In this document: one piece after another, positions 7,291 to 33,149 of the stretch
Numbering within the stretch: the stretch's first letter is position 1
Layout of the letters: the number at the start of each line of letters is the position of its first letter
Origin: a virus
DNA length: 64,000 nt
Reading direction: 5' to 3' (one strand)
Virus record (IMG/VR): IMGVR_UViG_3300044615_001997
The notes under the pieces: generated by a model
What the model saw: only the letters and a program-made list of their open reading frames with translations
What the model was told of the DNA's origin: nothing
The model's database searches: none
Position numbers and translations under genes: made by a program

Positions 7291-7292
7291 AC

Positions 7293-14393: not shown

Positions 14394-15086
14394 ATGAATA
14401 ATTTGTCAAAGCAAGAAAAGGTTTCAAAAATTCGTGAGTATTTTAACAATATTAGACTTGACGCTTCTGTGATGGGTAAAACAATAGGTACCCCTACGAA
14501 CAGGTTAACTCCTCTCATAATGTTTCAAAGCACAGGAAAACTTTTAAAAATTTACAGTCGTGAAATGCCCCAAGACGATAGAGATAATTTGTCTTTTTCA
14601 AAATTTTTAGGAGCCGAAGATTATGTGAAAGAACATATCGAATACGATGCCGGTAAGTTGCAATTAAAAGCCAAAAATAAGCTTCGTCAAAAGCGAAATC
14701 TTTCTTGGCTACACTCAGGCTTTTTCACGCCGCAAGTTAAGTCTGTATTTGTAGGTAATGCCCTAAGCCAAAACATCGAAGGGGTTAATCCTGTAGAGCA
14801 ATACATGCTAGCCCATAAAGTTACAAAAATGGGTGAGGGAGGAATAGGTAGTACTGTTGGAATTCCTGACAGCTCTCGTGGAGTTAATGAATCTCAATTT
14901 GGATTAATGGATCCTATTCAGACTGTAGAATCTGAAGCTATTGGAGTGGTTAACTTTTTTGTTAAAAATACTCGTAAGGGTGAAGATGGAAAACTTTATC
15001 GCCTAGTAGAAACACCAGAAGGTAAAGAAGTTTGGATTGACCATCAAGAATTTCTTAACTCAGTTATTGAAGTTCCTGAAAATTAA
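14394..15086 (+). CDS. rpoB: RNA polymerase beta subunit, middle (rifampicin/fork) fragment
   Basis: LSQNIEGVNPV...KMGEGG...SRGVNESQFGLMDPIQTVESEAIG aligns to RpoB LSQFMDQNNPL...ALGPGG...[24 protein letters not shown]; likely ATG 14394. Confidence 0.88.
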   Translation: MNNLSKQEKVSKIREYFNNIRLDASVMGKTIGTPTNRLTPLIMFQSTGKLLKIYSREMPQDDRDNLSFSKFLGAEDYVKEHIEYDAGKLQLKAKNKLRQKRNLSWLHSGFFTPQVKSVFVGNALSQNIEGVNPVEQYMLAHKVTKMGEGGIGSTVGIPDSSRGVNESQFGLMDPIQTVESEAIGVVNFFVKNTRKGEDGKLYRLVETPEGKEVWIDHQEFLNSVIEVPEN

Positions 15087-15091
15087 TGGTT

Positions 15092-17875
15092 TTAACATCC
15101 ATTTGCGTTTGGGAATTGTATCTGTACAATAGGTTGTTGTGATTGTGATTGTACTTGAGCTGTAAATGGTGAGCATGGAAAATTATTCGGTGAAGAGCAG
15201 CAAACAACCATCACAACTTCTTCAACATTTCCATTTGCACAAATTCTTACCCGCTTACAACAAAATCTAAGAGTGATTTGAATAGTTTGATTTAACTCTA
15301 TACCTATATTACCGTTTATTCGTACGTCGTTACAACCTACCTCTAATGAAATACTTCCTGAGAGAGGACTATTAACTGTAACAGATCCTCCTCCAGTTAA
15401 ACACGGTACGTCTACACTAGCAGACAGATCAATATTGCAGTTTGGTCCACCAGTGACAGTAGCATAAGAAGTTGTGCTGGCTTGACCAGTTCCAGTTAAC
15501 TCAAAAGACGCGCCGATAGTTTTACAAAAGTCAGGAATTAAACCAAGGTTTCCGTTAATTGTGACTCCGCAATTTGGGGCATTTGTAGGACTTAACGTGA
15601 TGCTGCCTGTTAAAGGTGAACTAACTATTACCTGTCCTGAAGCTTCAAAAGTTTCACAAATAGGAGGCATCGCAATATTTAAGCCAATGTCTAGTCCGCA
15701 GTTAGGTCTTCCGGTAGAGCCCACCGTTAAGCCTCCACTCATTGGAGACGGTACAACATTGCTTGTTAATCTTGCAGTAAACTCTTCACAAGCATTAACG
15801 TTTAAATTGCCACTTAAGTCGACTCCACACGCATTCGTTCCTCTAGCAGTTAAAGCCACATTGCCAGTTATTTGATTTGTGAGTGTGAGGCTGTTCGAAA
15901 CATCAAAACTTTCACATACGGGACCAATACCTATATTTCCACCGATGGTTACACCACATTGGTTAGCTCCTTGAGCAGTCAGTGTGAGACTTCCATTCAA
16001 CGGAGAGCTGACTGTAAAACTTCCTCCGGCAGTAAAACTTTCACATACAGGGCCTATCCCAATATTTCCTTGCAGTTCTACCCCGCAACCAGGCGTGCTT
16101 CTAGGTACAAGAGTAACAGAGCCGTTCAAAGGTGCGGCTGGGGTAATTTGTCCACCTGCATCAAAGCTTTCACAAACTGCAGGTAACTGTAGTTGTAAAC
16201 TTAATCCAGCCCCACAATCAGGTTTACTATTTGGGGTAAAATTGCCAGTTAAATTTCCAAATGTCGGCCCGCTAACGGTTCCTGTAACTCCCGAGAAAGT
16301 AGCCTGTTCGCAAATCGTGGGGAGAGTGATATCTAGGTCTAGCGTTCCTCCACAGTCAGGTTTACCGTTTGGTTGAAATACACCTAAAAATTGTGCTCCA
16401 GATATGCCAGTTATATTGGGAGTTACATTCATTGTAAACTCTTCGCAAACATCGAGCTGTAAACTTAGATCAAGGTCTACTCCACAATCAGGAATAGACG
16501 TAGGAGTTACAGTAAATATAGACCCTCCCATAGCTGGGGGGAAACTTTGATTGACTGAAGTTGTGAAACTCTCACAAACTTGTAAGTTTAAATCCAGATC
16601 TAAATCTACGCCGCAGTCTGGCCAAGAACGACTTGTAGCTAAGGGAGTTATGGTATGCGCTCCATTTATGCTAGCTGTAAAGGAAGATTCAAAACTTTCG
16701 CAAACTTGCAGGACCAAAGACAGATCCATATCCAATCCGCAATTTGGTGCTGTTTTGCCGGTAGTCGAAAAACTCGAACCCGCCATAGCTGATGGAAAGC
16801 TTCGTGTTGCTGATACGGAGAACTCTTCACAAACAGGTTCCATATTTAACTGCAACGCTAAATCCAACCCGCAGTTTGGTCGATTTTTAGGTACTAGTGC
16901 AATGGAAGATCCTGCCATTATAGGTGGAAAACTTTGCTGTGTTACATTAGCTGTAAACTCTTCGCAAACAGGAATATTTAAATTGAAGTCTAATGATGCT
17001 CCACAATCAGGAGCATTACGGGGGATTACAGTTCCTAAAAATACTCCGGTAGAAATTCCTGTTATTTCGCCAGTGATATTAAAAGTAGCCTCTTCACAAA
17101 CATCTAGATCTAAATTTAAATCCAGATTAATGCCGCAGTCAGGAGAATTGTTTGTTGTGGCAGTGAAAGAAGATCCCACCATAGCCGGATGAAAATTTCG
17201 AGTGAGGTTGGCTGAAAAAGTTTCACAAACATCTAACTGTAAATTTAAATCAAGATCCAGGCCACAGTCAGGAGCACTACTAGCCCTAGCAGAAAAACTA
17301 GAACCTAGCATGCTGGGAGGGAAAGATTGATTGACTGAAGTTGTGAACTGTACACAAGCCTCTAAGTTTAAATCCAGTTCTAAGTCTAGACTACAGTTTG
17401 GAGTACCTTGAGCAGTTGCGCGCAATCCTCCGGAGAGTCCTGACCCTGTGATATTTGATAGGACTCTGGAATTAAACGTTTCACAGGCAATAACATCAAT
17501 TTTACCTGTAATGTCTAAACCACAAATACGAGGGCCTGCAGCTTGTGCTGTAAAAAATCCTGTAGCTGCCCCAGTTTGTTCTACCAGCACAGTAGCTCTA
17601 AAATCTTCACAAGACTCGGGAATAACCGTTGGAGGGTTATAAATAGGAGGAGTTAGAAAGACTTGAGGAAACGCAAATTTACAATTTAAGTCTAGTTCCT
17701 CTAAAGGAGAAAGTGGCGGCGCTTCTCGTTCTATTTCTTCAACAATAGAACATAGGACAGGCTTATCCTCTGGATTAGGATAAGCAGGTTTATACTCTGA
17801 AGTATACTCTAGTTTTCCCGAACTAGCAGATTCTTCACCTAAACTAATTTTATCTGGATCGACTTCTAGGCCCAT
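15092..17875 (-). CDS. 927-aa protein of about 18 tandem Cys-pair beta repeats (putative fibre or appendage)
   Basis: Repeat unit CExF-x24-28-P[DN]CG-x-[DN]L of 42-46 aa. Confidence 0.8.
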   Translation of the reverse strand: MGLEVDPDKISLGEESASSGKLEYTSEYKPAYPNPEDKPVLCSIVEEIEREAPPLSPLEELDLNCKFAFPQVFLTPPIYNPPTVIPESCEDFRATVLVEQTGAATGFFTAQAAGPRICGLDITGKIDVIACETFNSRVLSNITGSGLSGGLRATAQGTPNCSLDLELDLNLEACVQFTTSVNQSFPPSMLGSSFSARASSAPDCGLDLDLNLQLDVCETFSANLTRNFHPAMVGSSFTATTNNSPDCGINLDLNLDLDVCEEATFNITGEITGISTGVFLGTVIPRNAPDCGASLDFNLNIPVCEEFTANVTQQSFPPIMAGSSIALVPKNRPNCGLDLALQLNMEPVCEEFSVSATRSFPSAMAGSSFSTTGKTAPNCGLDMDLSLVLQVCESFESSFTASINGAHTITPLATSRSWPDCGVDLDLDLNLQVCESFTTSVNQSFPPAMGGSIFTVTPTSIPDCGVDLDLSLQLDVCEEFTMNVTPNITGISGAQFLGVFQPNGKPDCGGTLDLDITLPTICEQATFSGVTGTVSGPTFGNLTGNFTPNSKPDCGAGLSLQLQLPAVCESFDAGGQITPAAPLNGSVTLVPRSTPGCGVELQGNIGIGPVCESFTAGGSFTVSSPLNGSLTLTAQGANQCGVTIGGNIGIGPVCESFDVSNSLTLTNQITGNVALTARGTNACGVDLSGNLNVNACEEFTARLTSNVVPSPMSGGLTVGSTGRPNCGLDIGLNIAMPPICETFEASGQVIVSSPLTGSITLSPTNAPNCGVTINGNLGLIPDFCKTIGASFELTGTGQASTTSYATVTGGPNCNIDLSASVDVPCLTGGGSVTVNSPLSGSISLEVGCNDVRINGNIGIELNQTIQITLRFCCKRVRICANGNVEEVVMVVCCSSPNNFPCSPFTAQVQSQSQQPIVQIQFPNANGC

Positions 17876-18228
17876 TAGACAAGCTTATTAAAAAGCCCAT
17901 AGAAAAACAACCCTAAAGGAAGGACTAGTAGATAAGCTGGGGATAGCAGTAAAAAAGGTAAACCTAACCAAAAACCGAAGCAAACTGGACAGGTTGTTAG
18001 TCTCACGACAAAGTAATCGTGATAATATTCTCTTAAAAATTCTGTGTAGGTTCCGCTGTAGCCGTTTTGCACGAGTTCATTATAGTTAGAAATATAAAAA
18101 AATCGTGAAAGTTTAAATAAAGTCAAATATTCTACAAAGGCATTTGTTTTAAACCAAATAACCAGAGCATAGCTAACTAATAGGGAGAACCCTAACACGT
18201 TTATGATAATGTCAGGGTTCCCCCACAT
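17875..18228 (-). CDS. membrane protein with CxxC (DUF1360-like)
   Basis: TM helices, TTCPVCFGFW. Confidence 0.6.
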   Translation of the reverse strand: MWGNPDIIINVLGFSLLVSYALVIWFKTNAFVEYLTLFKLSRFFYISNYNELVQNGYSGTYTEFLREYYHDYFVVRLTTCPVCFGFWLGLPFLLLSPAYLLVLPLGLFFYGLFNKLV

Positions 18229-18240
18229 AGCTTTGGTTAA

Positions 18241-18549
18241 TTAGGCATTGCTGGCGGCTGCCAACTGTTGCCCTTCTAGCTCACCGATTTTATTTTTTAG
18301 TTCGGCCAGCAGATTTTTTTGTGCAGTAATAGCAATTTTACGAGATTGCAATTGTGTCATTCTCTCGTTCAATTGTTGGGCAGAAGTATTCACTTCTACA
18401 ATACCTTCTTCAATGGTTTTCAGCTGGTCTTCGACTTGCGCAAGACCATCATCTACCAAAAGTAGAGATACGTGTTTGTTAACTTCTGTTCCAGTAACTA
18501 CAGGCAGTTCTACTCTGCCTTCAGGTTTTGTTGTTGTGTTTTCACTCAT
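18241..18549 (-). CDS. coiled-coil protein
   Basis: Heptad-rich C-terminal half. Confidence 0.6.
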   Translation of the reverse strand: MSENTTTKPEGRVELPVVTGTEVNKHVSLLLVDDGLAQVEDQLKTIEEGIVEVNTSAQQLNERMTQLQSRKIAITAQKNLLAELKNKIGELEGQQLAAASNA

Positions 18550-18556
18550 AATAGTA

Positions 18557-18703
18557 TTAGTCTTCGTTTATTAGTTCTTTAATTTCGCTGTTAAGTCTTT
18601 TAATTTCATCGTTATAGGCTCGCATTTGATCTTTTTTATTTTTACGAACATCTTCGAGTTCTACAACAAGTTGATAGATTTTAGCTTCTTTACTTTGTTC
18701 CAT
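18557..18703 (-). CDS. small coiled-coil protein (48 aa)
   Basis: MEQSKEAKIYQLVVELEDVRK...; fills operon gap. Confidence 0.5.
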   Translation of the reverse strand: MEQSKEAKIYQLVVELEDVRKNKKDQMRAYNDEIKRLNSEIKELINED

Positions 18704-18873: not shown

Positions 18874-18912
18874 AAAAAAAAGAGAGGCATGAGATTTTTC
18901 TCACACCTCTCT
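18874..18912 (-). terminator. Rho-independent terminator
   Basis: AGAGAGG..GAGA / TCTC..CCTCTCT hairpin with T-run on minus strand. Confidence 0.7.
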
Positions 18913-19190: not shown

Positions 19191-19844
19191 TTAATTTATA
19201 AATAACTTGTTATAAAGTTTATCTATTTCGTCTCCACGATAAGCCATTTTGTTGGCTTGTAAAATTTCTTTCCCCCACATCGCCTGCATTTGACTGTCAG
19301 AGATTCCCAACTCTTTTAAAAGTCCGTAAAGTCGAATTTGTGTGTTTTGAATCATCATTATGAAAAGCTGTTTGTCGGGTAAAAACAATATACGTGCAGC
19401 GACTCCTGTTTTAGGAGCCGGATTTATATGCGCTTCGGCTTCACCGCTTTGACGAATTCTGCTGTATATTCCTGGAAGTAGCCGCTGTTGATGAATAGGT
19501 TCATATTCACTCCCGTTATAAATAACGGTATTTCGCTCGGTAACGACAGGTAGATTAGCGATTGTTAAATTTTTTGATTCGAGTACTTTTCCTGACTTTT
19601 TATCCAGCAGCTCAACTGTTCCCTTTACAGGAATAGTAATGTCTTTCTTTTCTAAAACTGCCTGTTTTTGATCTTGAATAGTGAATTGCTTAGGAACAAC
19701 CTCTATTTTTTTAACTTCAATTTTATGGTCGTTTGTTTCAATCTCATTTAACTTTTTCTTAAAAGCTTCTACAGCATAATTTTGAATGAGCTTGTTTAAT
19801 GCCGGAGGATCAAAAAAATCGCGAGTATTTTCAGGAGGTTTCAT
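19191..19844 (-). CDS. rpoB: RNA polymerase beta subunit, N-terminal fragment
   Basis: IANLPVVTERNTVIYNGSEYEPIHQQRLLPGIY aligns to RpoB [33 protein letters not shown]. Confidence 0.85.
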   Translation of the reverse strand: MKPPENTRDFFDPPALNKLIQNYAVEAFKKKLNEIETNDHKIEVKKIEVVPKQFTIQDQKQAVLEKKDITIPVKGTVELLDKKSGKVLESKNLTIANLPVVTERNTVIYNGSEYEPIHQQRLLPGIYSRIRQSGEAEAHINPAPKTGVAARILFLPDKQLFIMMIQNTQIRLYGLLKELGISDSQMQAMWGKEILQANKMAYRGDEIDKLYNKLFIN

Positions 19845-20043
19845 CTTTCAACTTTTTTTTAACTGCTTTTGTTACAGCTATCCAAGTGTTGTGATAGTCT
19901 TCTTCGCTTTCAAAGTCTTCTTGAGATAACTCTAATTCAAAAGTTTTACCTGGGTACAGAACTCTGTCGTTCTCTCCACCAATTTCTTCGATATATGTCC
20001 CTTTTACTTTAAGGGAAGGAATGTAAATTTGTTTAAGTCCCAT
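19831..20043 (-). CDS. hypothetical protein
   Basis: Probable ATG 20043; coupled to both neighbours. Confidence 0.55.
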   Translation of the reverse strand: MGLKQIYIPSLKVKGTYIEEIGGENDRVLYPGKTFELELSQEDFESEEDYHNTWIAVTKAVKKKLKDETS

Positions 20044-20686
20044 AACCAGTTTTGTTTGTGAGTAGAGATTCAAGATACGCTCTTGATTGTGGGTCTGCAA
20101 GTATTTTTTCCATCTCGGGATACTTAGTGGTTAATTCTAACTGTTCTTTGTGCGGTGCATTTACAATGGGGGAAGTTTCAGGATTCTTCTTATCGGTATG
20201 CACAGTATCAATCATGTCGTTTGCTGTTCTAGCAGTTAAAACCGTTCTTAGTAAATTCAAGTCTAGTAAGCCTCCGGTTTTTACTCCTTTAGTAGCCATT
20301 CCTGCAAAACTCTGCACACTTCCTGGTTGAATACCTAGTGGATTACTATTGCCGCCTAAATTTATATTTATGTTGGGTGAGGCACCAGCGCCTGCTGCAC
20401 CTTTACCTCCGCCACCAAACATGCCTAATAAGGGTAAAGCCGAGGTAGCTACACTTCCCAAATCATCCATTAAACCGCCACCAGTAACGTAATTTAACCC
20501 TTTATTAACTTGATTGTATTGTTTGAGTCCTGGCAAATTACCTGCCCAATTTTTACCTGATTCCCAAGCTCGTCCGGCAGCTCGCCCAGCTCGCCCTAAG
20601 GTGCTGTCATATAATCCACCTAGAAAAGCATCTTTTTCAAGACCTTCATCAAATCCACGCTCAAGTTCCTGTAAGTCTAATTTCAT
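20033..20686 (-). CDS. Gly-rich putative internal virion protein
   Basis: RGFDEGLEKDA N-terminus, Gly-rich hydrophobic helix. Confidence 0.6.
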   Translation of the reverse strand: MKLDLQELERGFDEGLEKDAFLGGLYDSTLGRAGRAAGRAWESGKNWAGNLPGLKQYNQVNKGLNYVTGGGLMDDLGSVATSALPLLGMFGGGGKGAAGAGASPNININLGGNSNPLGIQPGSVQSFAGMATKGVKTGGLLDLNLLRTVLTARTANDMIDTVHTDKKNPETSPIVNAPHKEQLELTTKYPEMEKILADPQSRAYLESLLTNKTGYGT

Positions 20687-21414
20687 TTGAGGTAATAGGG
20701 TTCTAACTCTACACGAGTAGGTAATTCAGATTCCATAAAACTATCTTGGTCTTTCTCGCGCATTTTCTTTTTCAAGATGTAGGCAAGATAACCTGTTCCG
20801 CCTGCGGTACCAAGAAGACCTGTGGCACCTAGATCGATGGCAGGTTGCACTGGCTTGGCGGCGACACCTAAAGTTTTTTTAATGAGTCTTTTTATGCTGC
20901 CGTCACCAATCTCTACGTTTTCTGCAGTAGCACTGGTTTTAGCTAATTCAGGAATTAATAATTCTGTAGCCATACCGTTGCAGAAAGCGTCTACCATAGG
21001 TGTTTCTTCACCTTGTTTAATTTTTTGCAAAGTAGCTAGATAATTTTCCTGTGCGAGTCTTAGTGCTTTGTGAATTTCTTGTTTCTCCATCTCATAGTAT
21101 TCGCGACGTGCTTCACTGAATCCAGCTTCACCACCAACAAGTGTGCGAATAGGATTACGATTGAACCGTAGTGCGCGCCCAATAATGCCTGGTGGTTTTC
21201 CCTCTAAATCATCTGCCTGCTTCTCCTCACTCATCTTTTGGATAGGGAGAGGAATTTTTAAAACCTCGTTAGCTTTGTGCTGTTCCACCTCTTTCATCCT
21301 ATCCATCTCCTTAGTGAGTTGAATAGCGCTGAATAAGCTTTTACCTAGCAACTTGGAGGCCAGGTAAGCTTCTTCAGGTGAGAGAGGAGTTGGAGTATTA
21401 GCTAGGTTGTTCAT
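20683..21414 (-). CDS. putative internal virion protein with glycine-zipper helix
   Basis: EEKQA, LAKTS, LGATGLLGTAGGTGYLAY. Confidence 0.6.
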   Translation of the reverse strand: MNNLANTPTPLSPEEAYLASKLLGKSLFSAIQLTKEMDRMKEVEQHKANEVLKIPLPIQKMSEEKQADDLEGKPPGIIGRALRFNRNPIRTLVGGEAGFSEARREYYEMEKQEIHKALRLAQENYLATLQKIKQGEETPMVDAFCNGMATELLIPELAKTSATAENVEIGDGSIKRLIKKTLGVAAKPVQPAIDLGATGLLGTAGGTGYLAYILKKKMREKDQDSFMESELPTRVELEPYYLK

Positions 21415-21772
21415 TTTTGTCTTTCTTCTTTCCGTAAATTATAAAAATACAATAGTTGCCTTGAGCGGTCCAGTTGTCCTTGTAATAGGAAATAATATAT
21501 TGTGGATCATTCAGCAATTTATTCAGTAGTTCTCTGTCTTTATCTTTTTCAGGAGCTAAAGTGATGTTGTTGAAATTATAGTCGGCCATGTTGACACGTG
21601 GCTTTTTAATAATCCCTTTGGCTTGTTCAAATGCAGTGATTTCACGCTCGGTATCCAGAAGGTCGTTCTTGATTTCCCTCTGAACATTGCGCTTGGGTTT
21701 GGATAGGTCTTCTCCCATCCCACCGAACATATAGTGTGGGGTTTCGAAATTTTTTTCTTTAGTTGATGCCAT
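21398..21772 (-). CDS. hypothetical protein
   Basis: Coupled ORF in putative virion operon. Confidence 0.6.
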   Translation of the reverse strand: MASTKEKNFETPHYMFGGMGEDLSKPKRNVQREIKNDLLDTEREITAFEQAKGIIKKPRVNMADYNFNNITLAPEKDKDRELLNKLLNDPQYIISYYKDNWTAQGNYCIFIIYGKKKDKNEQPS

Positions 21773-22130
21773 ATTCTTTCCTGATGTTTTCTGTTAATTT
21801 TTTTACCATGTGTACTTTTTCACGCTCACGATCAAGAGCTCGATTCAAATCTACCACAGAGCTTTCTAGTTCGTCAAATGTGAGACCTGCGGCGGCTCCG
21901 CCAGCAGCACTGGCGTTGAGCGCCCAACCAGGAAGACTTGTAACCGCACCAGCAAGGGGTTTTGCCACAAAGTCTTGAACTAGGCTCAATTCTCCTGCGA
22001 CTTTTAGAACTCCCTCGCCGGTATTTAAATTTTTCAAACCCATCTCTAAATCTGAAAGTGTGCTGCCGTGCTTGGCTAATTCAAGCGCAAGCTCGTTTTT
22101 AATCATTTGTGCATATTTTGAAAGTTTCAT
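21759..22130 (-). CDS. putative internal virion protein
   Basis: ATG 22130 (ATGA overlap); SKYA, LKVA, AAGGAAAG helix. Confidence 0.6.
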   Translation of the reverse strand: MKLSKYAQMIKNELALELAKHGSTLSDLEMGLKNLNTGEGVLKVAGELSLVQDFVAKPLAGAVTSLPGWALNASAAGGAAAGLTFDELESSVVDLNRALDREREKVHMVKKLTENIRKEYGIN

Positions 22131-22498
22131 AGAAGTACCTTGTTTCTTGCTGTGGCTGAATCCCATTGAGTAAATTTTCCTGGCTGAGTCAAGCTATTCA
22201 TTATTATATTTCCTAACCCAAAGCCTGCCAAGCTCATAAGTGTTTGAGCTGTTCCGCTCATCTCCCTATATTTAGCCACTGCTAAACCTATGGCTCCACC
22301 GGCAACTCCAGCAAACAACTGTTCGGCTACATTAGGTGAGTTTAGAATAGCGAATAGGTTTTGTTTCTTTTCTTGTGAGAGTCCAAAGTCGCCCTGTATG
22401 GCTTTTTTTAAATCTTCGGGTGTGAGGTGAGGTCCAGGACCTATCAACCCCTGAAAGTCTTGCGGAAGGTTCATACCTATAGTGGTGATGGGATTCAT
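22127..22498 (-). CDS. glycine-zipper membrane-type protein
   Basis: AGVAGGAIGLAV and LAGFGLG helices. Confidence 0.6.
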   Translation of the reverse strand: MNPITTIGMNLPQDFQGLIGPGPHLTPEDLKKAIQGDFGLSQEKKQNLFAILNSPNVAEQLFAGVAGGAIGLAVAKYREMSGTAQTLMSLAGFGLGNIIMNSLTQPGKFTQWDSATARNKVLL

Positions 22499-22499
22499 A

Positions 22500-24011: not shown

Positions 24012-24012
24012 A

Positions 24013-25380: not shown

Positions 25381-26323
25381 AAATATAGTTATCCTCAAGT
25401 ATTTTATTCCCTTCCCCAACTGAAGGCAAGCTGACATTTTTCACTGCCCCAGAACGAAAACCCAGCTCGCCAACACGCTTTACACCATTGAATACCCAAC
25501 GAGCATTCTCTACCCAGTCCCAGGCCTTTTGATTCAGCTTCTTGAGAGGTACAACACCAACCTCACGACTGTAGGCTTTAATGGGAGTATAGACAGCATA
25601 GAGATACCTCACCAAGTTCTTGATATTTCTCACTCTACCGCCACCCATAACATCCTCTGTAGTGAATACCTGGTTGAATCTCTCGATGGGATCCTCGCCA
25701 CGATAGAAGTATATAACATGGGTATGAGGGTAGTAGATGTCGTCACCCAGAGATGCCACACTCAATTCATGACTATATAAAACCTTGATCTTCCCGTTAC
25801 GAGTAATGCGCTTCAACCCCTTAACAGTAGCCCCCCAGAAGCGGTAACAGTTCTCGGTCCAATCACCCTCACTAACATCTATATATCCATTACTAACCAC
25901 ACATGTAGAAGCCCGCCAACCAGAGGCTAATAAATCTGGTATTGCACGACCAGCACTCCTACTCCAAAACTTACTTTTACATTGCTGGGCAGTTTTAGGG
26001 TTAGTGATCCTGCAATATTTACTGCGATGAGACCATTCATCACGATTAACATTACCCTCTACAATACCAAACTCCTCACTGGAGCGTGTGGCAAGAAGCA
26101 TAAGGAGAAAAGTAAGCTCATCACGTTCCTTACACCCAGAGGATACATCTTTACTGTCACTATTTAAAATTTCTCTCAAGCGGTTCTTTGTCCCGAGTTC
26201 TTCTAGGGGAAGTTCACGACTCTTCATCAATACTTGTAGAGGGTCTGTGAAATCCATCTCATAACGAGCATCATAGCGACCTATCTGAGGGAGTTTAAAT
26301 TCTTCCATAGGGTGTGTGACCAT
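24998..26323 (-). CDS. HUH endonuclease, rolling-circle Rep_1-like
   Basis: YSHELSV...YYPHTHVIYF (HUH), NLVRYLY (motif III-like), FNGVKRVGELG; probable ATG 26323. Confidence 0.6.
   Translation of the reverse strand: MVTHPMEEFKLPQIGRYDARYEMDFTDPLQVLMKSRELPLEELGTKNRLREILNSDSKDVSSGCKERDELTFLLMLLATRSSEEFGIVEGNVNRDEWSHRSKYCRITNPKTAQQCKSKFWSRSAGRAIPDLLASGWRASTCVVSNGYIDVSEGDWTENCYRFWGATVKGLKRITRNGKIKVLYSHELSVASLGDDIYYPHTHVIYFYRGEDPIERFNQVFTTEDVMGGGRVRNIKNLVRYLYAVYTPIKAYSREVGVVPLKKLNQKAWDWVENARWVFNGVKRVGELGFRSGAVKNVSLPSVGEGNKILEDNYIYEKPRRLFNRCGRRAGRERESTAQTVCGEGMAPESRNGEMEHAPVYRGSPEGESGISSWTEGGYAPGGSRRSCYRGIFQGVRRDSLTVHGGSGESGKPTGSTSWRRVDEHTQHGDAWIEAAYTGRGG
25400..25429 (-). promoter_or_regulatory. 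sigma70-like promoter TTGCCT-17-TAAAAT
   Basis: Canonical spacing upstream of ATG 25380; lies inside the HUH ORF. Confidence 0.6.
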
Positions 26324-26331
26324 ACTTGATG

Positions 26332-26360
26332 AAGATACTTTCATTCTGTGGGTGTGTCAA
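26332..26360 (-). promoter_or_regulatory. sigma70-like promoter TTGACA-17-TATCTT, probably leaderless
   Basis: Perfect -35 box; ATG 26323 lies 8 nt after the -10 box. Confidence 0.65.
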
Positions 26361-26430
26361 TGGAGAGAGTGCGTGCTATGAGAGTGGAAACATAGATTAT
26401 ACTCAAGAGGCGGTGCACGGGTCTTTTTAT

Positions 26431-26459
26431 TTGCTTATTTACAGCTTCAGGAGTATGCT
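26431..26459 (+). promoter_or_regulatory. sigma70-like promoter TTGCTT-17-TATGCT, leaderless
   Basis: ATG 26466 lies 6 nt after the -10 box; divergent from the leftward promoter. Confidence 0.6.
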
Positions 26460-26465
26460 ATCGAG

Positions 26466-27124: not shown

Positions 27125-30112
27125 ATGGCTAAAAAAGAAAAATATGTTTTAATGCAGGGAAAGTTGAGGCGCGTCGCCGCCACAACTCGTGTAGACTACC
27201 GCATACCTAGCACCACAGACTTTTTTAGTCCTGTGACTAACCTTATTCCTAACCTAGGTTCGGTGTCAGGAGCCCGTGTTTTGATTGGTGATAAAAGCAG
27301 TTTGCAGGCAATGACACTTGTTAATCGCGAAGCTCCGTTAGTGCAAGCATCAGCAGATAAAAAAACAAAGAGCTTTATCGAAGAATTTGGCGAAAAACTA
27401 GTGAGTATAAAAGCCACTGTTGCAGGTAAAGTAACAAGTATAACTCCAGTTGAAATTAAAATAAAGGGAGTCGGAGGAATTACCACCATACCACTTTATG
27501 AAAACTATTTAGTGGGGAGAGAAAGCTATATTCATCACAGACCTGTAGTGAGTGTGGGAGATAGTGTGAAAGTAGGAGATCTTCTAGCTACTTCAAATTA
27601 CTCCGACAGTAAAGGTAATTTGGCTCTTGGCATGAATTTAAAAACTGCTGTGATGCCGTTTCGTTCTTATAACTTCGAAGATGCTCTCGTGATTTCCGAA
27701 GACGCAGCCAAGAAGTTGGAAGGGGAGCAATTAATTCCGCTACGTTTAGAGGTAGGTCGAGGCATTGAAACAGATAAAAACAAATTTATATCCCTATTCC
27801 CAAACCGCTACTATAACGACCAGTTATCAAAGTTAGACTCTGATGGTGTTATTAAACGTGGCATGCGCGTTAAAACAGGTGATCCGCTGGTGCTGGCCTT
27901 TCAACCCAAAACACTTAAATCTCTAGAACTTCAATTAGGAAAACTTTCTCGAGCTTTAAAGAATGCCTATACAGATATTTCTAAAGAGTGGGAGTACGAA
28001 CATGACGGTGAAGTTGTGGACGTAGCTAACACTGGAAAATTAATAACTGTCACCATTAAAACTACCCGCCCCATGGCGCAGGGCGACAAGCTGTCTAATC
28101 CTTTCGGTGCCAAGGGAGTCGTGAGAATTGTGTCTAATAGTGAAATGCCTCAAGATGAAAACGGTAAACCTGTAGACGTTATATTAAACTCAATGAGTGT
28201 TACATCGCGTGTTGCTCCAGGGTTAATAACTACTATGGCAATGGGTAAGCTAGCTGAAAAAAAGAACAAGTCTTTAAAATTAACTCCCTTTGTTTCAGGA
28301 TCGTCAGTTGAACAGACCATTAAAGCTTTAGATAAAGAAGGAATAAAAGATACAGAAAAGCTATATGACCCAGCTACTGGAAAATACATCGAGGTATTTA
28401 CAGGGCCTTCGTATTACACAAGACTACATCATATAGCCGAAGATAAAATTTCATCACGGTCTGCAGGCACAACATACGATATAAACATGCAGCCCTCTAA
28501 AGCTGGGACAGAGGAGAAAAGCAAACGTTTAGGTAATTTAGCTACGACAGTAGCTCTTTCCAATGACGCTAAAGCTGTTTTGAGAGATGTGGCAGTAATA
28601 CGCAGTACAAAAAACGACGATTTCTGGACAGCTATTAAATTGGGGCTAACACCACCACCACCTAAAGTTCCTTTTATATTTAACAAGTTTATTTCTCATT
28701 TAGAGGGTGCGGGTGTGACTGTACATCAAGATGGACCTAAATTTAATATTCTGCCACAAATAGATAAAGACATTGAAAAACTTTCTCAGGGAGAGATTAA
28801 AATTCCTCTCACATATAAATTACGTGGAGGAGATTTAGTTCCTGAGGATGGAGGATTGTTTGATCCTGTTAATACCGGCATTTATGGAGATGCTTATAAT
28901 CACTTAAATCTTTCTTTTAAAATTCCCAATCCTGTGTCTGAAGAACCGCTGAGAAAGTTGCTAGGACTGACAAAAGCAAAGTATGAAGACTTAGTTATTA
29001 CTGGAGGATTAGAACAGAAGTTAAAAGGTATAGATCTAGATAAAAAAATTGAGGAGTTTAAAGGATATATAAAATCTAATAGAAAAACAGGAAGAGATGA
29101 CGCAATAAAAGTTTTAAACTTTTTATTGATGTTGAAGAAAAACAATATGACTCCTTCGAGCTTGATTCTTTCTAAGGTCCCTATTATTCCGGCACAATAT
29201 CGACCAATCATGGCTCAAGGCAATCAAGTCATGTCGGCGGATGTTAATGAGTTGTATAAAGATTTAATGTTGGTTAATAAATCTTTGGGAGATATTCCTG
29301 AAGAAACTCCCGAGGAGTTAATGAGTGCAGCTAGAAAACAACTTTATGACGGTGTTAAAGCTGTCTATGGTTTGGGAGAACCGATTTCCATTAGAAGCAA
29401 AGAGAAGAAGTTTAAAGGTCTTTTAGCCACAACGCTAGGTACTATGGGAGGTAGCGCAAAAGAGTCCATGTTTCAAGCCAAGGTTGTGAATAAGCCTATA
29501 GATCTTGTAGGTAGAGGTGTATTAATTCCAGATGGAAATTTAAATCTTAACGAAGCCTCTATACCTCAAGCAATACTGTGGAATGTCTATACTCCATTTA
29601 TAATGCGTCGTTTAGTTCGCCAAGGAATACAGGCAACTAAAGCTAGAGAATATGTACAAAATAAACATCCTCTAGCTAGTCAAGCCCTACAGGAAGAGTT
29701 AAAAGATAGGCCCGGCATAGTTACTCGTGACCCACAATTAAGTAAATATAATTTTCAAGGGTTTTATTTAAAGCCTAACGCTGATCCAAAAGATTTTTCT
29801 ATTAAGTTAAACCCTCTTGTATTTAAAGGTTATGGGGCAGATTCTGATGGAGATCAATTAAACGTCCAAATTCCGGCTTCAGATGACGCAAAAGAAGAAA
29901 TAAAAGAAAAGTTATTGCCGGAAAAAAACTTAATTTATCACAGAACTTTTTCACCTATATTCACACCTTCTAATGAAGCTGCTGTGGGGTTGTTCGCAGC
30001 TTCTTATGAAGATAATAAAAACAAGGCTATAAAATATGGTAATGTTGCGGAAATTGTGAGAGATTTTAAAGCAGGTAAACTTGACGTAGGGGATAGAGTT
30101 GAATTACCTTAA
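27125..30112 (+). CDS. rpoBC: RNA polymerase fusion: beta C-terminal half plus beta-prime N-terminal half (catalytic subunit)
   Basis: beta: SYNFEDA, GDKLSNPFGAKGVV, SVTSRV, RLHHIAEDK; beta-prime: PEDGGLFDP, IPAQYRP, KPIDLVGRGVL, TRDPQL, GADSDGDQ. Confidence 0.93.
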   Translation: MAKKEKYVLMQGKLRRVAATTRVDYRIPSTTDFFSPVTNLIPNLGSVSGARVLIGDKSSLQAMTLVNREAPLVQASADKKTKSFIEEFGEKLVSIKATVAGKVTSITPVEIKIKGVGGITTIPLYENYLVGRESYIHHRPVVSVGDSVKVGDLLATSNYSDSKGNLALGMNLKTAVMPFRSYNFEDALVISEDAAKKLEGEQLIPLRLEVGRGIETDKNKFISLFPNRYYNDQLSKLDSDGVIKRGMRVKTGDPLVLAFQPKTLKSLELQLGKLSRALKNAYTDISKEWEYEHDGEVVDVANTGKLITVTIKTTRPMAQGDKLSNPFGAKGVVRIVSNSEMPQDENGKPVDVILNSMSVTSRVAPGLITTMAMGKLAEKKNKSLKLTPFVSGSSVEQTIKALDKEGIKDTEKLYDPATGKYIEVFTGPSYYTRLHHIAEDKISSRSAGTTYDINMQPSKAGTEEKSKRLGNLATTVALSNDAKAVLRDVAVIRSTKNDDFWTAIKLGLTPPPPKVPFIFNKFISHLEGAGVTVHQDGPKFNILPQIDKDIEKLSQGEIKIPLTYKLRGGDLVPEDGGLFDPVNTGIYGDAYNHLNLSFKIPNPVSEEPLRKLLGLTKAKYEDLVITGGLEQKLKGIDLDKKIEEFKGYIKSNRKTGRDDAIKVLNFLLMLKKNNMTPSSLILSKVPIIPAQYRPIMAQGNQVMSADVNELYKDLMLVNKSLGDIPEETPEELMSAARKQLYDGVKAVYGLGEPISIRSKEKKFKGLLATTLGTMGGSAKESMFQAKVVNKPIDLVGRGVLIPDGNLNLNEASIPQAILWNVYTPFIMRRLVRQGIQATKAREYVQNKHPLASQALQEELKDRPGIVTRDPQLSKYNFQGFYLKPNADPKDFSIKLNPLVFKGYGADSDGDQLNVQIPASDDAKEEIKEKLLPEKNLIYHRTFSPIFTPSNEAAVGLFAASYEDNKNKAIKYGNVAEIVRDFKAGKLDVGDRVELP

Positions 30113-30142
30113 TGCTTTATTATTTAAACTTTTCATGCTACC

Positions 30143-30343
30143 ATGATCGATGAAAACATATGGTTCAGTTTAACTGACGAACAAAAGTTAAATGAGCTAG
30201 AAGCTTATCTCACCGAGTATAGACTATTAGACTCTGGAGAGCATGAGCTCTCAAAAACACGAGAAGCGGGAAAAATAAAACTTTTAAAATCTGAACTTAA
30301 AACTAAAATAAATAAAATTATAGATTTGGAGCACATCAAATGA
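30143..30343 (+). CDS. hypothetical protein
   Basis: ATGA coupled to next gene. Confidence 0.55.
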   Translation: MIDENIWFSLTDEQKLNELEAYLTEYRLLDSGEHELSKTREAGKIKLLKSELKTKINKIIDLEHIK

Positions 30344-30954
30344 ACATTCAAGAACTCATCACTTCGTATAACTCTCTAGTTAAAGAGGCGTTTATACCTA
30401 ATCCTGAACAGCAAGGCCAGGAAGGTCAATTAGAGCAGGCTTATCAACAACTATCTCAACTGCTCTCAGGAATGCCTCCAGAGGTTCAGGGGCAGATTGA
30501 GCCCATGCTTCAACAGTTACAACAGCTGCCACCTACAGACCAATTAAGTCAAATTAGTGGACTGATACAGCAGCTGAGTCAGGGAGGCGCACAACAAGAG
30601 CAACCACAAGAACAAGCCCAACCACAAGAAGAGCAGAGTGGGATGGTTCCTGAAGGTGGCCATGTGAACGCTGAAAACAGTTTAGACAATACAAAAGTAA
30701 CTCTCTCAGTTAGAGAGTTGTTAGATCTTTCAAGCGGCGGTAAGGCTACTCAAAGTTTACTTAAAGTTAAACAAATGGCAGAAACACATAATAAAAAAAT
30801 GGAAGCTGTACAGCAACAAGCAGAGCAAGAGCAAGTTACTCAACAGCAGCAACAGCAACAACAAGAGGCTATGGGTCAGGGAGGAATTTATTCTCAACCT
30901 ATGAATGCTAAGCCAGGTCAACCTGCACAACCTGCACCTACCCCTGCAATGTAA
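30340..30954 (+). CDS. Gln-rich putative virion protein
   Basis: LVKEA then Q/P-rich tracts. Confidence 0.65.
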   Translation: MNIQELITSYNSLVKEAFIPNPEQQGQEGQLEQAYQQLSQLLSGMPPEVQGQIEPMLQQLQQLPPTDQLSQISGLIQQLSQGGAQQEQPQEQAQPQEEQSGMVPEGGHVNAENSLDNTKVTLSVRELLDLSSGGKATQSLLKVKQMAETHNKKMEAVQQQAEQEQVTQQQQQQQQEAMGQGGIYSQPMNAKPGQPAQPAPTPAM

Positions 30955-30955
30955 T

Positions 30956-31285
30956 ATGACATCTTTGGAAAAAGTCAGTACTTATTTAGCTGCGTTTCAA
31001 CCAGGCGACGCTAATTACGATTTTGCCTGTTTTATAAAAGAAAAATTAGCTCAAGCTGGTGTAGGTTATGGTTTTGGAGACACACCTATTCACGAAGAAG
31101 AAAATAACGATGCTCAAGAGGTAGAAACTGCAGGACTTGACAAAACCGAAGAAAATCTAGAAGGTAAAATTATGGAGCCAGCTTTTCAAGATTTAGAGGC
31201 TTTAAACCAGATAGATAAAGAAAAACAAGAAGTTAAAACTGCTCAAACCATAAAAGCTTTTTTGGATAAGTTAAGGAGTCTTTAA
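30956..31285 (+). CDS. acidic putative virion protein
   Basis: Probable ATG 30956; EKVS, EKLA, VKTA. Confidence 0.6.
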   Translation: MTSLEKVSTYLAAFQPGDANYDFACFIKEKLAQAGVGYGFGDTPIHEEENNDAQEVETAGLDKTEENLEGKIMEPAFQDLEALNQIDKEKQEVKTAQTIKAFLDKLRSL

Positions 31286-31286
31286 C

Positions 31287-33149
31287 ATGGCCATCACTAC
31301 TGTAGGACGTATACTTTTAAAGCAGTATACGCCTAAACATTTACATCATTTAATAGATACTGAAATTTTAGATAAAAAAGGTATTACAACACTTTTTTCT
31401 AAATTAGTAGAATTAGAGCCTGACAATTATAGCAAGATAGCTTCTGATTTAACTAGACTAGGCTTCGAAGTTGCTACAAGACAAGGTACATCTATCACTT
31501 TAAAAGATCTTGTTTCACCGATAGACAAAGATAAAGTTTACGAAAAGTTTGAAGAATTTAAGGATAAGGTAGAAAAATCTGACGATCCGCTCAATATTAA
31601 ACAACAGCGTATTTTTGATAAGTATAATACGATGATGGAAGATATAAATAAGTCTATTTTAGACGAAGGATTAAAAAGCAATAAATCTTTGGCTAAAATT
31701 ATTTTAGCAGGTTCTAGAGGATCACCATCTCAATACCGTTTCACCATCGCTACTCAGGGTGTGGTGGTTGACGCAGAAGGTAATCCAAAAATGGATATTC
31801 CTGTAAAAAGTTCGTATGCTGAAGGGCTGAGCTTACCAGAATATCTTGTGACTTCATTCGGTACACGTACTGGCGAAGTAGTCAAAAAGGTAGGTGTGGC
31901 TCAGGGCGGATATTCAAGCAAGCAATTTTCTAGAGCTTTGATGAATCTGCAAGTAACACAGGCAGATTGCGGAACACCTACAGGCATAACAGTGACAGTG
32001 GAAGACAAAGATTCCATAGGAGCCTTTTTAGCCGCCCCCGCAGGTAGCTATAATCGTAATAACGAAATAACCGCCAAGATGTTGAGCGACTTGAGAAATA
32101 AAGGAATTAAATCTATATTAGTTAGATCTCCTATGACTTGTCGCGCAGGAAAACACGGACATTTTGGTTCAGTGTGTCAACTATGCGTAGGACAACGTGA
32201 AAAAGGGCTACCTGCCCCAGATACCTATATAGGTTTAGTAGCCGCAACAGCAGTTAGTGAGCCTCTAACAGAATATGCCATGAAATTGAGACACGGCGGC
32301 GGCGCAGCAACTTCTTTAGGTGGAACTGGAGGCTTTAAAGCAATAGATCAGCTAGCAAACATACCGAAAACTTTTTTAAATAAATCCCCTTTAGCTCAGG
32401 AAGATGGAATCGTTACTTCTGTGAGGCCAGCTTCAGCTGGTGGTTATTTTATTAATGTTGGAGAAAAAGAATACTATATAGGTATAGGACTTCAACCAAA
32501 AGTTAAAGAAGGTGATCGTGTTGAGCAAGGAGATTCTTTAAGTACAGGGCTTATAGACCCACGTGAAGTAGTTATGTATAAAGGTATCGGTGAAGGTAGA
32601 AAGTATTATGCTACTGCAATGAAGAGGGCTTTTGATGATGGTAATTTACATGTGAACCGTAGAAATTTTGAATTAATTGCTAGATCTGCAATAGACCATG
32701 TTAAAATTACGGACTCTGAGGGTTTGGGTAATTTTTTACCTGATGAAATTGTTTCATACACAGCCATGGAAAAAAACTATAAAACACGACCCTCTAGTAA
32801 AGATATGCGCGCAGATTTAACATATGGAAAATATTTAGAAAAACCTATATTGCATTATACTATAGGGACTAAAATAAATAGTCATGTAATAAAAGATTTA
32901 AAAGATCAAGGAATTGAGGCTGTTACAGTAAACGATAATCCTCCTAATTTTGAGCCTGTAATGGTTAGACTGTTAGACGTTCCTGAGCATGTTGATGATT
33001 TTATGCATATTCTTTACAGTACTAACTTAGCTAAGCGCTTTAGTAATGCTGTTAACCAAGGAGCAGAGACAGATATCCGAGGACCTAGCCCTATACCTGG
33101 ATTGGCTTACGGGGTAGGCTTTGGAGAAACAAGCGCCTTTAAGAATTAG
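31287..33149 (+). CDS. rpoC: RNA polymerase beta-prime subunit, C-terminal half
   Basis: TTVGRIL, AGSRGS, SYAEGLSLPEY...GY bridge helix, DCGT, RSPMTC...VCQLC zinc site, SEPLTEYAMKLRHGGG trigger loop, HVNRRNFELI. Confidence 0.92.
   Translation: MAITTVGRILLKQYTPKHLHHLIDTEILDKKGITTLFSKLVELEPDNYSKIASDLTRLGFEVATRQGTSITLKDLVSPIDKDKVYEKFEEFKDKVEKSDDPLNIKQQRIFDKYNTMMEDINKSILDEGLKSNKSLAKIILAGSRGSPSQYRFTIATQGVVVDAEGNPKMDIPVKSSYAEGLSLPEYLVTSFGTRTGEVVKKVGVAQGGYSSKQFSRALMNLQVTQADCGTPTGITVTVEDKDSIGAFLAAPAGSYNRNNEITAKMLSDLRNKGIKSILVRSPMTCRAGKHGHFGSVCQLCVGQREKGLPAPDTYIGLVAATAVSEPLTEYAMKLRHGGGAATSLGGTGGFKAIDQLANIPKTFLNKSPLAQEDGIVTSVRPASAGGYFINVGEKEYYIGIGLQPKVKEGDRVEQGDSLSTGLIDPREVVMYKGIGEGRKYYATAMKRAFDDGNLHVNRRNFELIARSAIDHVKITDSEGLGNFLPDEIVSYTAMEKNYKTRPSSKDMRADLTYGKYLEKPILHYTIGTKINSHVIKDLKDQGIEAVTVNDNPPNFEPVMVRLLDVPEHVDDFMHILYSTNLAKRFSNAVNQGAETDIRGPSPIPGLAYGVGFGETSAFKN

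What the first reader, a model, noticed from the sequence alone, without database searches (positions are those of the whole stretch)
14394..33149. Four-gene bacterial-type RNA polymerase with a beta/beta-prime junction fusion, scattered among virion genes
Seen: RpoB/RpoC motifs spread over four non-adjacent genes on both strands, out of order: beta N-terminus (19191-19844, -), beta Rif/fork region (14394-15086, +), beta C-half fused in frame to beta-prime N-half carrying DxDGD (27125-30112, +), and beta-prime C-half (31287-33149, +). Known: phiKZ-type enzymes split beta and beta-prime into separate, highly diverged halves, and whole rpoBC fusions occur in Helicobacter and Wolbachia. Here both double-psi barrels lie in one 995-aa chain that still aligns by eye to bacterial RNAP, with the periphery supplied in trans. 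No alpha, omega or sigma gene is recognisable in the window. Inference: an independent capture of a bacterial rpoBC operon, re-cut into an alpha-independent and probably virion-packaged enzyme.
Basis: partly seen in the sequence, partly recalled or inferred. Interest (0 to 1): 0.9.

Follow-up and report, generated by a model that had tools for sequence, protein, structure and literature searches.

The report
Phage RNA polymerase in four genes
An uncultured lake-water phage encodes one bacterial-type RNA polymerase cut into four genes, with both catalytic barrels on a single chain. This is a further-split variant of a widespread phage enzyme that I found described in no paper, and it comes with its own sigma factor.

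Summary
Four genes tile a bacterial beta/beta-prime pair without gaps:
- beta-N1, 19191-19844 (-)
- beta-N2, 14394-15086 (+)
- beta C-half fused in frame to beta-prime N-half, 27125-30112 (+)
- beta-prime C-half, 31287-33149 (+)

They align colinearly on Salmonella phage Arash gp206 (1525 aa, residues 12-221, 230-469, 492-1517) and gp216.

The layout is not an assembly artefact. The identical beta-N2 protein lies on at least 11 contigs from at least five samples. All 11 IMG/VR relatives with enough upstream sequence keep the four-gene layout, down to about 50% identity.

The fusion is not special to this window. It marks a large metagenomic clade: all 150 best 50%-identity representatives carry it. 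Of these, 110 are Arash-type (whole beta plus beta-prime N-half), 4 are whole beta-beta-prime fusions and 23 have the fused part alone, as here. The window sits in a 13-row clade that is all of the fused-part-only type (support 100). Relatives carry inteins and homing endonucleases in and beside these genes.

A conserved sigma70-family gene, a homologue of virion-detected Arash gp10, lies about 1.7 kb past the window end. It is modelled onto the beta-prime clamp helices. Complete relatives have no alpha or omega gene and no second polymerase set.

Virion packaging and an independent capture from bacteria remain inferences. The scan had already noted this fusion on other DNA.

The parts
19191..19844 (-). 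beta-N1, 217 aa: N-terminus of beta (protrusion and start of the lobe)
   Evidence: Matches Arash gp206 residues 12-221 at E 1e-19 and solved bacterial beta chains at residues about 54-196, E 6.4e-7. It ends exactly at Arash residue 227. Open orthologues at 48-70% identity in 11 relatives.
14394..15086 (+). beta-N2, 230 aa: rest of the lobe plus the fork/rifampicin-region segment
   Evidence: Rpb2_3 match. Aligns to E. coli beta 499-588 and Arash gp206 230-469. The identical protein lies on at least 11 contigs from at least five samples, always with the same neighbours. Orthologues at 48-75% identity.
27125..28735 (+). beta C-half of the fused gene (residues 1-537): beta double-psi barrel, flap, C-terminal clamp
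   Evidence: Rpb2_6 E 1.4e-55. Residues 20-554 align to bacterial beta from E. coli residue 647 to the end. K322, K330 and NFED 183-186 are invariant.
28736..30112 (+). beta-prime N-half of the same frame (residues 538-995): zinc ribbon deleted, clamp helices, barrel with DSDGD
   Evidence: Rpb1_1 and Rpb1_2. Alignment to Salmonella RpoB-end plus RpoC-start shows a direct joint and loss of the four-Cys zinc ribbon. The chain has no cysteine at all.
29840..29854 (+). catalytic triad DSDGD (canonical NADFDGD reads GADSDGD)
   Evidence: D906, D908 and D910 are invariant in 12 relatives.
29231..29374 (+). clamp helices (residues about 703-750), the predicted docking site of the phage sigma-like protein
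   Evidence: Aligns to E. coli beta-prime 260-309. Modelled interface residues are 694-739 and 754-764.
31287..33149 (+). beta-prime C-half, 620 aa: bridge helix, trigger loop, second zinc site (C228, C285, C297, C300)
   Evidence: Rpb1_5. Aligns to E. coli beta-prime from residue 572 onward and to Arash gp216 at E 9e-61. Orthologues at 47-79% identity.
30143..31285 (+). three small genes between the fused gene and beta-prime C: 66 aa, a Q/P-rich 204 aa, and an acidic protein of about 109 aa starting at 30956. Role unknown
   Evidence: Kept at this position in the four-gene clade. No family match.
26345..26465 (.). divergent intergenic region from which the leftward gene run (ending with beta-N1) and the rightward run (holding the fused gene) both start
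   Evidence: Gene map and sequence. This is an inference from layout; no promoter was shown.
18881..18912 (-). terminator-like hairpin (14 pairs plus a T run) just downstream of beta-N1 and one small gene
   Evidence: This is a consensus match only.

Best explanation
The four genes encode the catalytic core of the phage's single bacterial-type multisubunit RNA polymerase.

Ancestry (inferred). The ancestral enzyme of this phage lineage had whole beta fused head-to-tail to the N-half of beta-prime, with the C-half of beta-prime as a second chain, as in phage Arash. In the window's sub-clade the beta N-terminus was cut off cleanly at two surface-permissive points and moved. This gave beta-N1 on the opposite strand and beta-N2 as a lone gene. 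Mobile elements are the likely cause, since inteins and homing endonucleases lie in and beside these genes in relatives.

Mechanism (inferred). The four chains reassemble into the usual two-barrel cleft. The covalent beta/beta-prime tether takes over part of the assembly role of the missing alpha dimer. A phage sigma70-family protein, encoded about 1.7 kb past the window end inside the tail/baseplate module, docks on the retained clamp helices and gives promoter specificity. The enzyme is made late and is probably carried in the virion to start the next infection.

Shown here: the homology, the tiling, the conservation, the single copy, the absence of alpha and omega genes, and the presence of sigma.

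Inferred: assembly, independence from alpha, use of sigma by this enzyme rather than by the host's, and packaging.
For: Anatomy:
- Domain matches and solved-structure alignments place each piece on beta or beta-prime.
- The pieces tile Arash gp206 and gp216 colinearly and without gaps.
- The joint runs directly from the beta end to the beta-prime start, with the zinc ribbon deleted.
- The catalytic residues are invariant.

The genes are real and functional:
- The identical beta-N2 lies on at least 11 contigs from at least five samples.
- Open orthologues of all four genes keep the same order and strands in 11 of 11 relatives with enough contig.

Polarity of the split:
- Among the 150 best 50%-identity representatives, 110 have N1+N2+fusion in one chain, 4 are whole fusions and 23 have the fusion alone.
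- The window lies in a 13-row clade that is all fusion-only, SH-like support 100.
- Vibrio phage D181 is split 46 residues away, with a homing endonuclease gene in the gap. That is an independent fission.
- Inteins with LAGLIDADG domains occur in relatives.

Gene complement in relatives:
- One Rpb2_6 match per relative genome, so one polymerase set.
- No RpoA or omega families in a complete relative and three relatives at least 93% complete.

Sigma:
- A Sigma70_r3 protein of 212 aa lies on contigs 99.98-100% identical to the window end.
- Orthologues lie 34-37 kb downstream of the fused gene in the five relatives searched for Sigma70_r3, and in a sixth by tblastn.
- It is homologous to Arash gp10 (E 7e-15).
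- The complex model of fusion residues 540-995 with the sigma-like protein supports binding; it does not show it. Score 0.79, best of 3 controls 0.01. That mark was reached by 58 of 80 solved complexes and 2 of 110 mismatched pairs; these counts hold only roughly, because my own alignments were used. The runs agree in at least 54% of contacts and the partner's pLDDT is at least 74. The interface is sigma residues 26-43 on the clamp helices. Sigma on clamp helices is a solved textbook pair, so the pass may come from likeness to known structures.

Packaging: Arash gp206, gp216 and gp10 were all found in purified particles.
Against: - No experiment exists on any four-gene member.
- The Arash proteome was permissive. 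It detected 116 proteins, including nucleotide-metabolism enzymes, and its authors allow carry-over.
- The single-chain fold of the fusion came out poor (pLDDT 54.6, pTM 0.32), so co-folding of the four chains is not shown.
- The sigma-like protein could instead redirect the host polymerase.
- Host alpha and omega could still be recruited.
- The tree is unrooted (midpoint for drawing only). The polarity therefore rests on parsimony and on the unsplit state of bacterial beta.
Confidence: 0.8

Rival explanations
1. The core is not independent of alpha. The phage chains assemble on the host's alpha dimer and omega, so the enzyme is a hybrid of phage catalytic subunits and host platform.
For: No phage alpha or omega gene exists. 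The enzyme stays close enough to bacterial beta and beta-prime to align at E 1e-41, so the alpha-contact surfaces could be retained.
Against: A packaged enzyme would then need host alpha in the virion. PhiKZ/AR9-type enzymes work without alpha (PMC7598289). The beta/beta-prime tether is a plausible substitute. None of this was tested here.
Confidence: 0.2
2. The enzyme is an intracellular middle/late polymerase that is not packaged. Early genes are read by the host polymerase, and the phage sigma-like proteins redirect the host enzyme.
For: Sequences resembling host -10 boxes, some with an extended TG, stand upstream of several nucleotide-metabolism genes at 5.9-9.2 kb. The Arash particle preparation contained many non-structural enzymes.
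Against: The polymerase and sigma genes are embedded in and co-oriented with the virion module in every relative. Arash gp206 gave the highest spectral count of all proteins. The sigma-like protein is modelled on the phage clamp helices.
Confidence: 0.3
3. The beta-N genes are decaying remnants, or the splits are assembly or frameshift artefacts, and the real enzyme lacks them.
For: Beta-N1 has no Pfam match.
Against: The frames stay open at 48-75% identity in 11 relatives, with order and strand kept. The identical gene occurs in at least five samples. The junctions are seamless, each with its own start and stop codon.
Confidence: 0.02
4. The lineage's polymerase shares an ancestor with phiKZ-type phage enzymes rather than being a separate capture from bacteria.
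For: The beta-prime split falls just after the barrel, as in phiKZ-type enzymes and cyanobacteria (PMC7598289). Weaker matches exist to phiKZ-type PHROG families.
Against: Scores are much stronger to bacterial chains than to phiKZ-type families. No Chimalliviridae record matched in tblastn against 50,697 phage records. The beta-to-beta-prime joint follows rpoB-rpoC gene order. This lineage uses a sigma, which phiKZ-type phages lack (PMC7824862). No tree was built to test the question.
Confidence: 0.2

Closest known systems
Salmonella phage Arash gp206 + gp216 (OQ632216; PMC10585845)
   Same: The same beta-end to beta-prime-start fusion, zinc ribbon deletion, beta-prime cut after the barrel and gp10-type sigma. 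Gene order with the structural module is shared.
   Different: Arash keeps the whole beta N-terminus in the fused chain (1525 aa, two genes). Identity is only 27-32%. The paper annotates gp206 simply as the beta subunit and does not mention the fusion.
Vibrio phages D69, D148 and D181 (OZ195729, OZ196545, OZ196140)
   Same: Fused beta C-half/beta-prime N-half chain of 1006 aa, with a separate beta-prime C-half and a sigma gene.
   Different: Three genes. Beta-N is one 514-aa chain, adjacent to and co-oriented with the fusion. It is cut 46 residues further in, with a homing endonuclease gene in the gap. All are annotated as hypothetical.
phiKZ/AR9-type virion and non-virion polymerases (Chimalliviridae; PMC7598289)
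   Same: Phage multisubunit enzyme without alpha or omega, with beta and beta-prime in pieces and the beta-prime cut after the barrel.
   Different: Those phages carry two paralogous sets, have no beta/beta-prime fusion, have no sigma70-family factor and are far more diverged from bacteria. Here there is one set, a fusion and a sigma.
Whole rpoB-rpoC fusions of Helicobacter and Wolbachia (recalled knowledge)
   Same: The same joint: beta C-terminus to beta-prime N-terminus.
   Different: Those are full-length cellular enzymes with alpha, omega and the zinc ribbon. Here the two ends of the fusion are cut off. Whole fusions do occur inside this phage clade (P0222, P0246, P0250, P0267).
mReC phages (PMC7481178) and Kleczkowskaviridae such as Rhizobium phage RHph_Y65
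   Same: Tailed phages with a bacterial-like beta and beta-prime.
   Different: Their large subunits are separate and unsplit: the mReC filter required at least 800 aa and NADxDGD, and RHph_Y65 beta-prime is 1127 aa. The capsid is T4-like. This clade's GADSDGD would fail the mReC filter.

Membership tests
Bacterial-type two-barrel multisubunit RNA polymerase | Beta barrel with the two catalytic lysines and the NFED motif | tested here: met
   Rpb2_6 E 1.4e-55. K322, K330 and N183-D186 are invariant.
Bacterial-type two-barrel multisubunit RNA polymerase | Beta-prime barrel with DxDGD | tested here: met
   DSDGD at residues 906-910, all three Asp invariant. The flanking N and F of NADFDGD are G and S.
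Bacterial-type two-barrel multisubunit RNA polymerase | Beta-prime N-terminal four-Cys zinc ribbon | tested here: not met
   Deleted in the alignment to Salmonella RpoC. The fused chain has no cysteine.
Bacterial-type two-barrel multisubunit RNA polymerase | Alpha dimer and omega subunits | tested here: not met
   PF01193, PF01000 and PF01192 are absent from the complete relative G013 and from three relatives at least 93% complete. Controls were positive. The window's own genome is not held.
Bacterial-type two-barrel multisubunit RNA polymerase | Sigma70-family initiation factor | tested here: met
   A Sigma70_r3 protein on contigs identical to the window end. A complex model supports docking on the clamp helices: 0.79 against a best control of 0.01. 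Use by this enzyme is inferred.
Arash-type phage polymerase | Beta C-terminus fused in frame to the beta-prime N-half, with the beta-prime C-half separate | tested here: met
Arash-type phage polymerase | Whole beta N-terminus on the fused chain | tested here: not met
   Two separate, relocated genes.
Arash-type phage polymerase | Presence in virions | not testable with these tools
   Only the Arash proteome exists.
phiKZ-type phage polymerases | Two paralogous sets (virion and non-virion) | tested here: not met
   One Rpb2_6 match in each of five relative genomes.
phiKZ-type phage polymerases | No sigma70-family factor | tested here: not met
   A sigma-like gene is conserved.
mReC phages (PMC7481178) | Separate beta and beta-prime of at least 800 aa, with NADxDGD | tested here: not met
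   Fusion, splits and GADSDGD.

The most novel reading that the evidence does not exclude
This lineage is a third major class of phage multisubunit RNA polymerase. It is dependent on sigma but free of alpha and omega, is held together by a beta/beta-prime tether, and is packaged with its sigma into virions. Its natural one-, two-, three- and four-chain versions form a ready-made series for studying how the two-barrel enzyme assembles and which cuts it tolerates.
Probability: 0.4. Interest if true: 0.75.

Novelty: new variant of a known kind. Interest (0 to 1): 0.6.

Why it matters
Phage multisubunit polymerases have been studied almost only in phiKZ/AR9-type phages. Those enzymes lack both alpha and sigma and are very diverged from bacterial ones.

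This enzyme is abundant in metagenomes: 1475 clusters at 50% identity match at E 1e-30 or better, a count that also includes ordinary beta and beta-prime subunits. It still aligns well to bacterial enzymes, keeps the sigma-docking helices and comes with its own sigma. Yet it lacks alpha, omega and the zinc ribbon, and it puts both barrels on one chain.

Cultured members exist (Arash, Vibrio D69/D148/D181), so its assembly, promoter use and packaging can be tested directly. The four-gene form shows where beta can be cut in nature without losing function. The many inteins and homing endonucleases point to how such cuts arise.

Tried and rejected
- The whole genome of the window is not held. Relatives and identical contigs were used instead.
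- Folding the 995-aa fusion alone on a 12-row alignment gave pLDDT 54.6 and pTM 0.32. That is too poor for a fold search, so none was run.
- Complex prediction was unreachable twice before it ran.
- Arash sigma gp196 and the D181 sigma have no match in the window or in relatives. Sigma70_r2 gave nothing in three relatives.
- Sigma70_r4 matches fell on proteins that are not orthologous to each other. Two of these proved to be real extra sigma-like proteins: G011 has r2 plus r4_2, and G013 has r4_2. One was an HTH/HNH-like protein.
- Pfam and PHROG searches of the genes between the pieces found nothing.
- The sigma70-type promoter and terminator scan of 13.6-33.4 kb was not above shuffles.
- The 'moraphage' lineage (PMC12619734) has no polymerase genes and is unrelated.
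- Two reviews of jumbo phages, the mReC paper and a comparative genomics paper do not describe this fusion.
- The small acidic gene at 30956-31285 looked disordered in alignment, so the second fold job was not spent on it.
Full report
**What is there**

The region holds four open frames with RNA polymerase homology.
- The 995-aa frame at 27125-30112 (+) matches RNA_pol_Rpb2_6 (E 1.4e-55) in its first half. It matches Rpb1_1 and Rpb1_2 in its second half.
- The frame at 31287-33149 (+) matches Rpb1_5.
- The frame ending at 15086 (+) matches Rpb2_3.
- The frame at 19191-19844 (-) has no Pfam match.

Against solved structures:
- Residues 20-554 of the fusion align to bacterial beta from E. coli residue 647 to its end.
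- Residues 605-993 of the fusion align to beta-prime up to just past the barrel.
- The 620-aa protein continues from E. coli beta-prime residue 572.
- The 14394 gene covers the fork/rifampicin region, E. coli beta 499-588.
- The 19191 gene covers beta residues about 54-196.

The true start of beta-N2 is the ATG at 14394.

**The joint**

I aligned the fusion and relatives to the end of Salmonella RpoB followed by the start of RpoC.
- The beta C-terminus runs into beta-prime through a linker of a few residues. About four residues of the beta end and about 18 residues of the beta-prime start are missing.
- The four-Cys zinc ribbon of beta-prime is cleanly deleted in every clade member examined, Arash included. 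The fused chain has no cysteine at all.
- The clamp helices (residues about 703-750) are retained.
- The catalytic loop reads GADSDGD, with the three aspartates invariant.
- The beta-prime C-half keeps four cysteines at the second zinc site.

**Relatives in published phages**

tblastn against 50,697 phage records found only four true relatives: Salmonella phage Arash and Vibrio phages D69, D148 and D181. The other matches were bacterial contaminants and unsplit beta-prime genes of Rhizobium phages.
- Arash gp206 is 1525 aa. The window's three beta-bearing pieces tile it colinearly at residues 12-221, 230-469 and 492-1517. The fourth piece matches gp216.
- A multiple alignment places the cuts at Arash residues 227|228 and 470|471, with no residue lost.
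- D181 has a three-gene form: a 514-aa beta-N, then a homing endonuclease gene, then a 1006-aa fusion. Its cut lies 46 residues further in than the window's. Fission therefore happened at least twice, at different sites.
- The window shares gene order with Arash through the structural module: gp218, gp222, major capsid gp226, gp236 and gp238.

**Is the layout real?**
- The identical beta-N2 protein occurs on at least 11 contigs from at least five samples, always between the same neighbours.
- IMG/VR holds relatives at 52-78% identity in the fusion.
- In all 11 with enough upstream contig, beta-N1 is an open frame on the opposite strand. Beta-N2 is an open frame on the same strand, further upstream.
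- One of these relatives, G013, is a complete 204,454-bp genome with terminal repeats.
- The pieces are conserved about as well as the fusion itself.

Assembly artefact and gene decay are excluded.

**How common is the fusion?**
- The word-indexed search found 368 clusters at E 1e-10 or better. The best 120 are all 52-94% identical, and nearly all are about 995 aa long.
- The exhaustive search of 50%-identity representatives found 1475 at E 1e-30 or better. That count also includes ordinary beta and beta-prime subunits.
- The best 150, all at E 1e-168 or better, sort as follows:

| Architecture | Count |
|---|---|
| N1+N2+fusion in one chain (Arash type, 1396-3038 aa) | 110 |
| Whole beta-beta-prime fusion | 4 |
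| Fusion alone | 23 |
| N2+fusion | 13 |

- On a FastTree of the fused region (155 rows), the window falls in a 13-row clade that is all fusion-only, with support 100. The four whole fusions form one clade, with support 97.
- Bacterial beta is unsplit at these points and most of the family is unsplit, so the four-gene form is most simply derived.
- Relatives carry inteins with LAGLIDADG endonucleases inside the beta barrel or next to the catalytic loop. Extra genes are inserted right after the fusion, one of them Cys-rich and resembling an HNH endonuclease by eye but without a Pfam match.

These elements are a plausible cause of the repeated cutting.

**Other subunits**
- A Pfam sweep of 65 window proteins found no sigma or alpha among the 25 of 38 matched families that were listed.
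- Relatives have a single Rpb2_6 match each, so there is one polymerase set.
- They have no RpoA or omega families, while the controls were positive.
- All five relatives searched for Sigma70_r3 have a 212-242-aa frame with that domain, 34-37 kb downstream of the fusion on the same strand.
- Two contigs that are 99.98-100% identical to the last 4.2-4.6 kb of the window extend past it. They carry this gene at a window-equivalent position of about 65,740-66,378 (30.7 bits against a cut-off of 25.3). Genes with weak baseplate likeness follow it.
- The gene is homologous to Arash gp10 (E 7e-15). Gp10 was detected in Arash particles together with gp206 and gp216.
- Its orthologues are 51-66% identical and show sigma regions 2, 3 and 4.
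- Some relatives have further sigma-like genes.

**Does the sigma-like protein fit the phage enzyme?**

I modelled a complex of fusion residues 540-995 with the sigma-like protein. The model supports binding; it does not show it.
- The score was 0.79, and the best of 3 controls was 0.01.
- That mark was reached by 58 of 80 solved complexes and 2 of 110 mismatched pairs. These counts hold only roughly, because my own alignments were used.
- The runs agree in at least 54% of contacts, and the partner's pLDDT is at least 74.
- The contacts join sigma residues 26-43 and 74-84 to fusion residues 694-739 and 754-764. Those fusion residues are the clamp helices.
- Sigma on clamp helices is a solved textbook interface, so the pass may reflect likeness to known structures. 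It does not show that this copy binds, and it cannot tell phage polymerase from host polymerase as the target.

**Packaging**

Only Arash has data. Gp206 gave the most spectra of any protein, and gp216 and gp10 were also abundant. However, the particles came from a sucrose gradient, 116 proteins were detected, and the authors allow carry-over.

In every relative examined, the fused, beta-prime C and sigma genes lie inside the virion module and point the same way as it does. That fits late expression and packaging, but it is only context.

**Literature**

I found no paper that describes the fusion.
- The Arash paper calls gp206 the beta subunit.
- The mReC study required separate subunits of at least 800 aa with NADxDGD, which excludes this clade.
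- Two jumbo-phage reviews and a comparative genomics paper treat only phiKZ-type and YonO-type enzymes.

Earlier notes of this scan describe the same fusion, the DSDGD loop, the zinc ribbon loss and a split intein on other genomes. I reached Arash and D181 before reading those notes, and I tested the fusion, DSDGD loop and zinc-ribbon claims here; inteins were seen only in relatives, and the split-intein claim itself was not tested.

**Verdict**

It is wrong on sigma, and it overstates the uniqueness of the fusion. The feature specific to this window's clade is the extra double fission and relocation of the beta N-terminus. I class it as a new variant of a known but essentially unstudied kind.

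Noticed in passing
window 7293-11728, minus strand: Six tRNA genes (Glu, Pro, Asp, Thr, Asn, His) lie among small genes upstream of the ribonucleotide reductase.
   Followed up: no
window 15092-17875, minus strand: A 927-aa protein without any family match. It is built of tandem units of about 45 aa, each with two cysteines and runs of alternating Asp/Asn and Leu. It lies between beta-N2 and beta-N1.
   Followed up: no
window 20033-26344, minus strand: A G+C-rich stretch (0.47-0.50 against about 0.38) that encodes Gly/Ala/Leu-rich proteins with no family match. Two long frames, 24013-25437 and 24998-26344, overlap by 440 nt. They could be internal virion or ejection proteins.
   Followed up: partly
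window 29834-29854: The canonical NADFDGD reads GADSDGD. The Asn that contacts the incoming nucleotide's sugar in bacterial enzymes (recalled knowledge) is Gly across the clade. The effect on sugar selection is unknown.
   Followed up: partly
window 30143-31285: Three small genes are kept between the fusion and beta-prime C in the four-gene clade but not in Arash or D181. They are a 66-aa protein, a protein with a variable Q/P-rich linker, and a very acidic protein of about 109 aa. They may be polymerase accessory proteins.
   Followed up: partly
window 5890-9235: Sequences like host-type -10 boxes, some with an extended TG, stand upstream of several genes of the nucleotide-metabolism region, for example before 5926, 6423 and 9135 (-). 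No statistics were done.
   Followed up: no
L027:13002-14447 and L029:13194-13697: In two relatives an extra gene is inserted directly after the fused gene. One has DUF7487; the other is Cys-rich and resembles an HNH endonuclease by eye, without a Pfam match. Both may be mobile elements.
   Followed up: partly
L026 and L028 (IMGVR_UViG_3300035188_001379): This 184,465-bp contig begins and ends inside the fused gene, as expected for a circularly permuted or circular assembly.
   Followed up: no
window 1-14156: A nucleotide-metabolism set: DNA ligase (4741-5886), class II ribonucleotide reductase (11735-13735) and dCMP deaminase (13689-14156). PhoH, a GMP reductase/IMPDH-like protein and MazG also matched somewhere in the window but were not located.
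   Followed up: no
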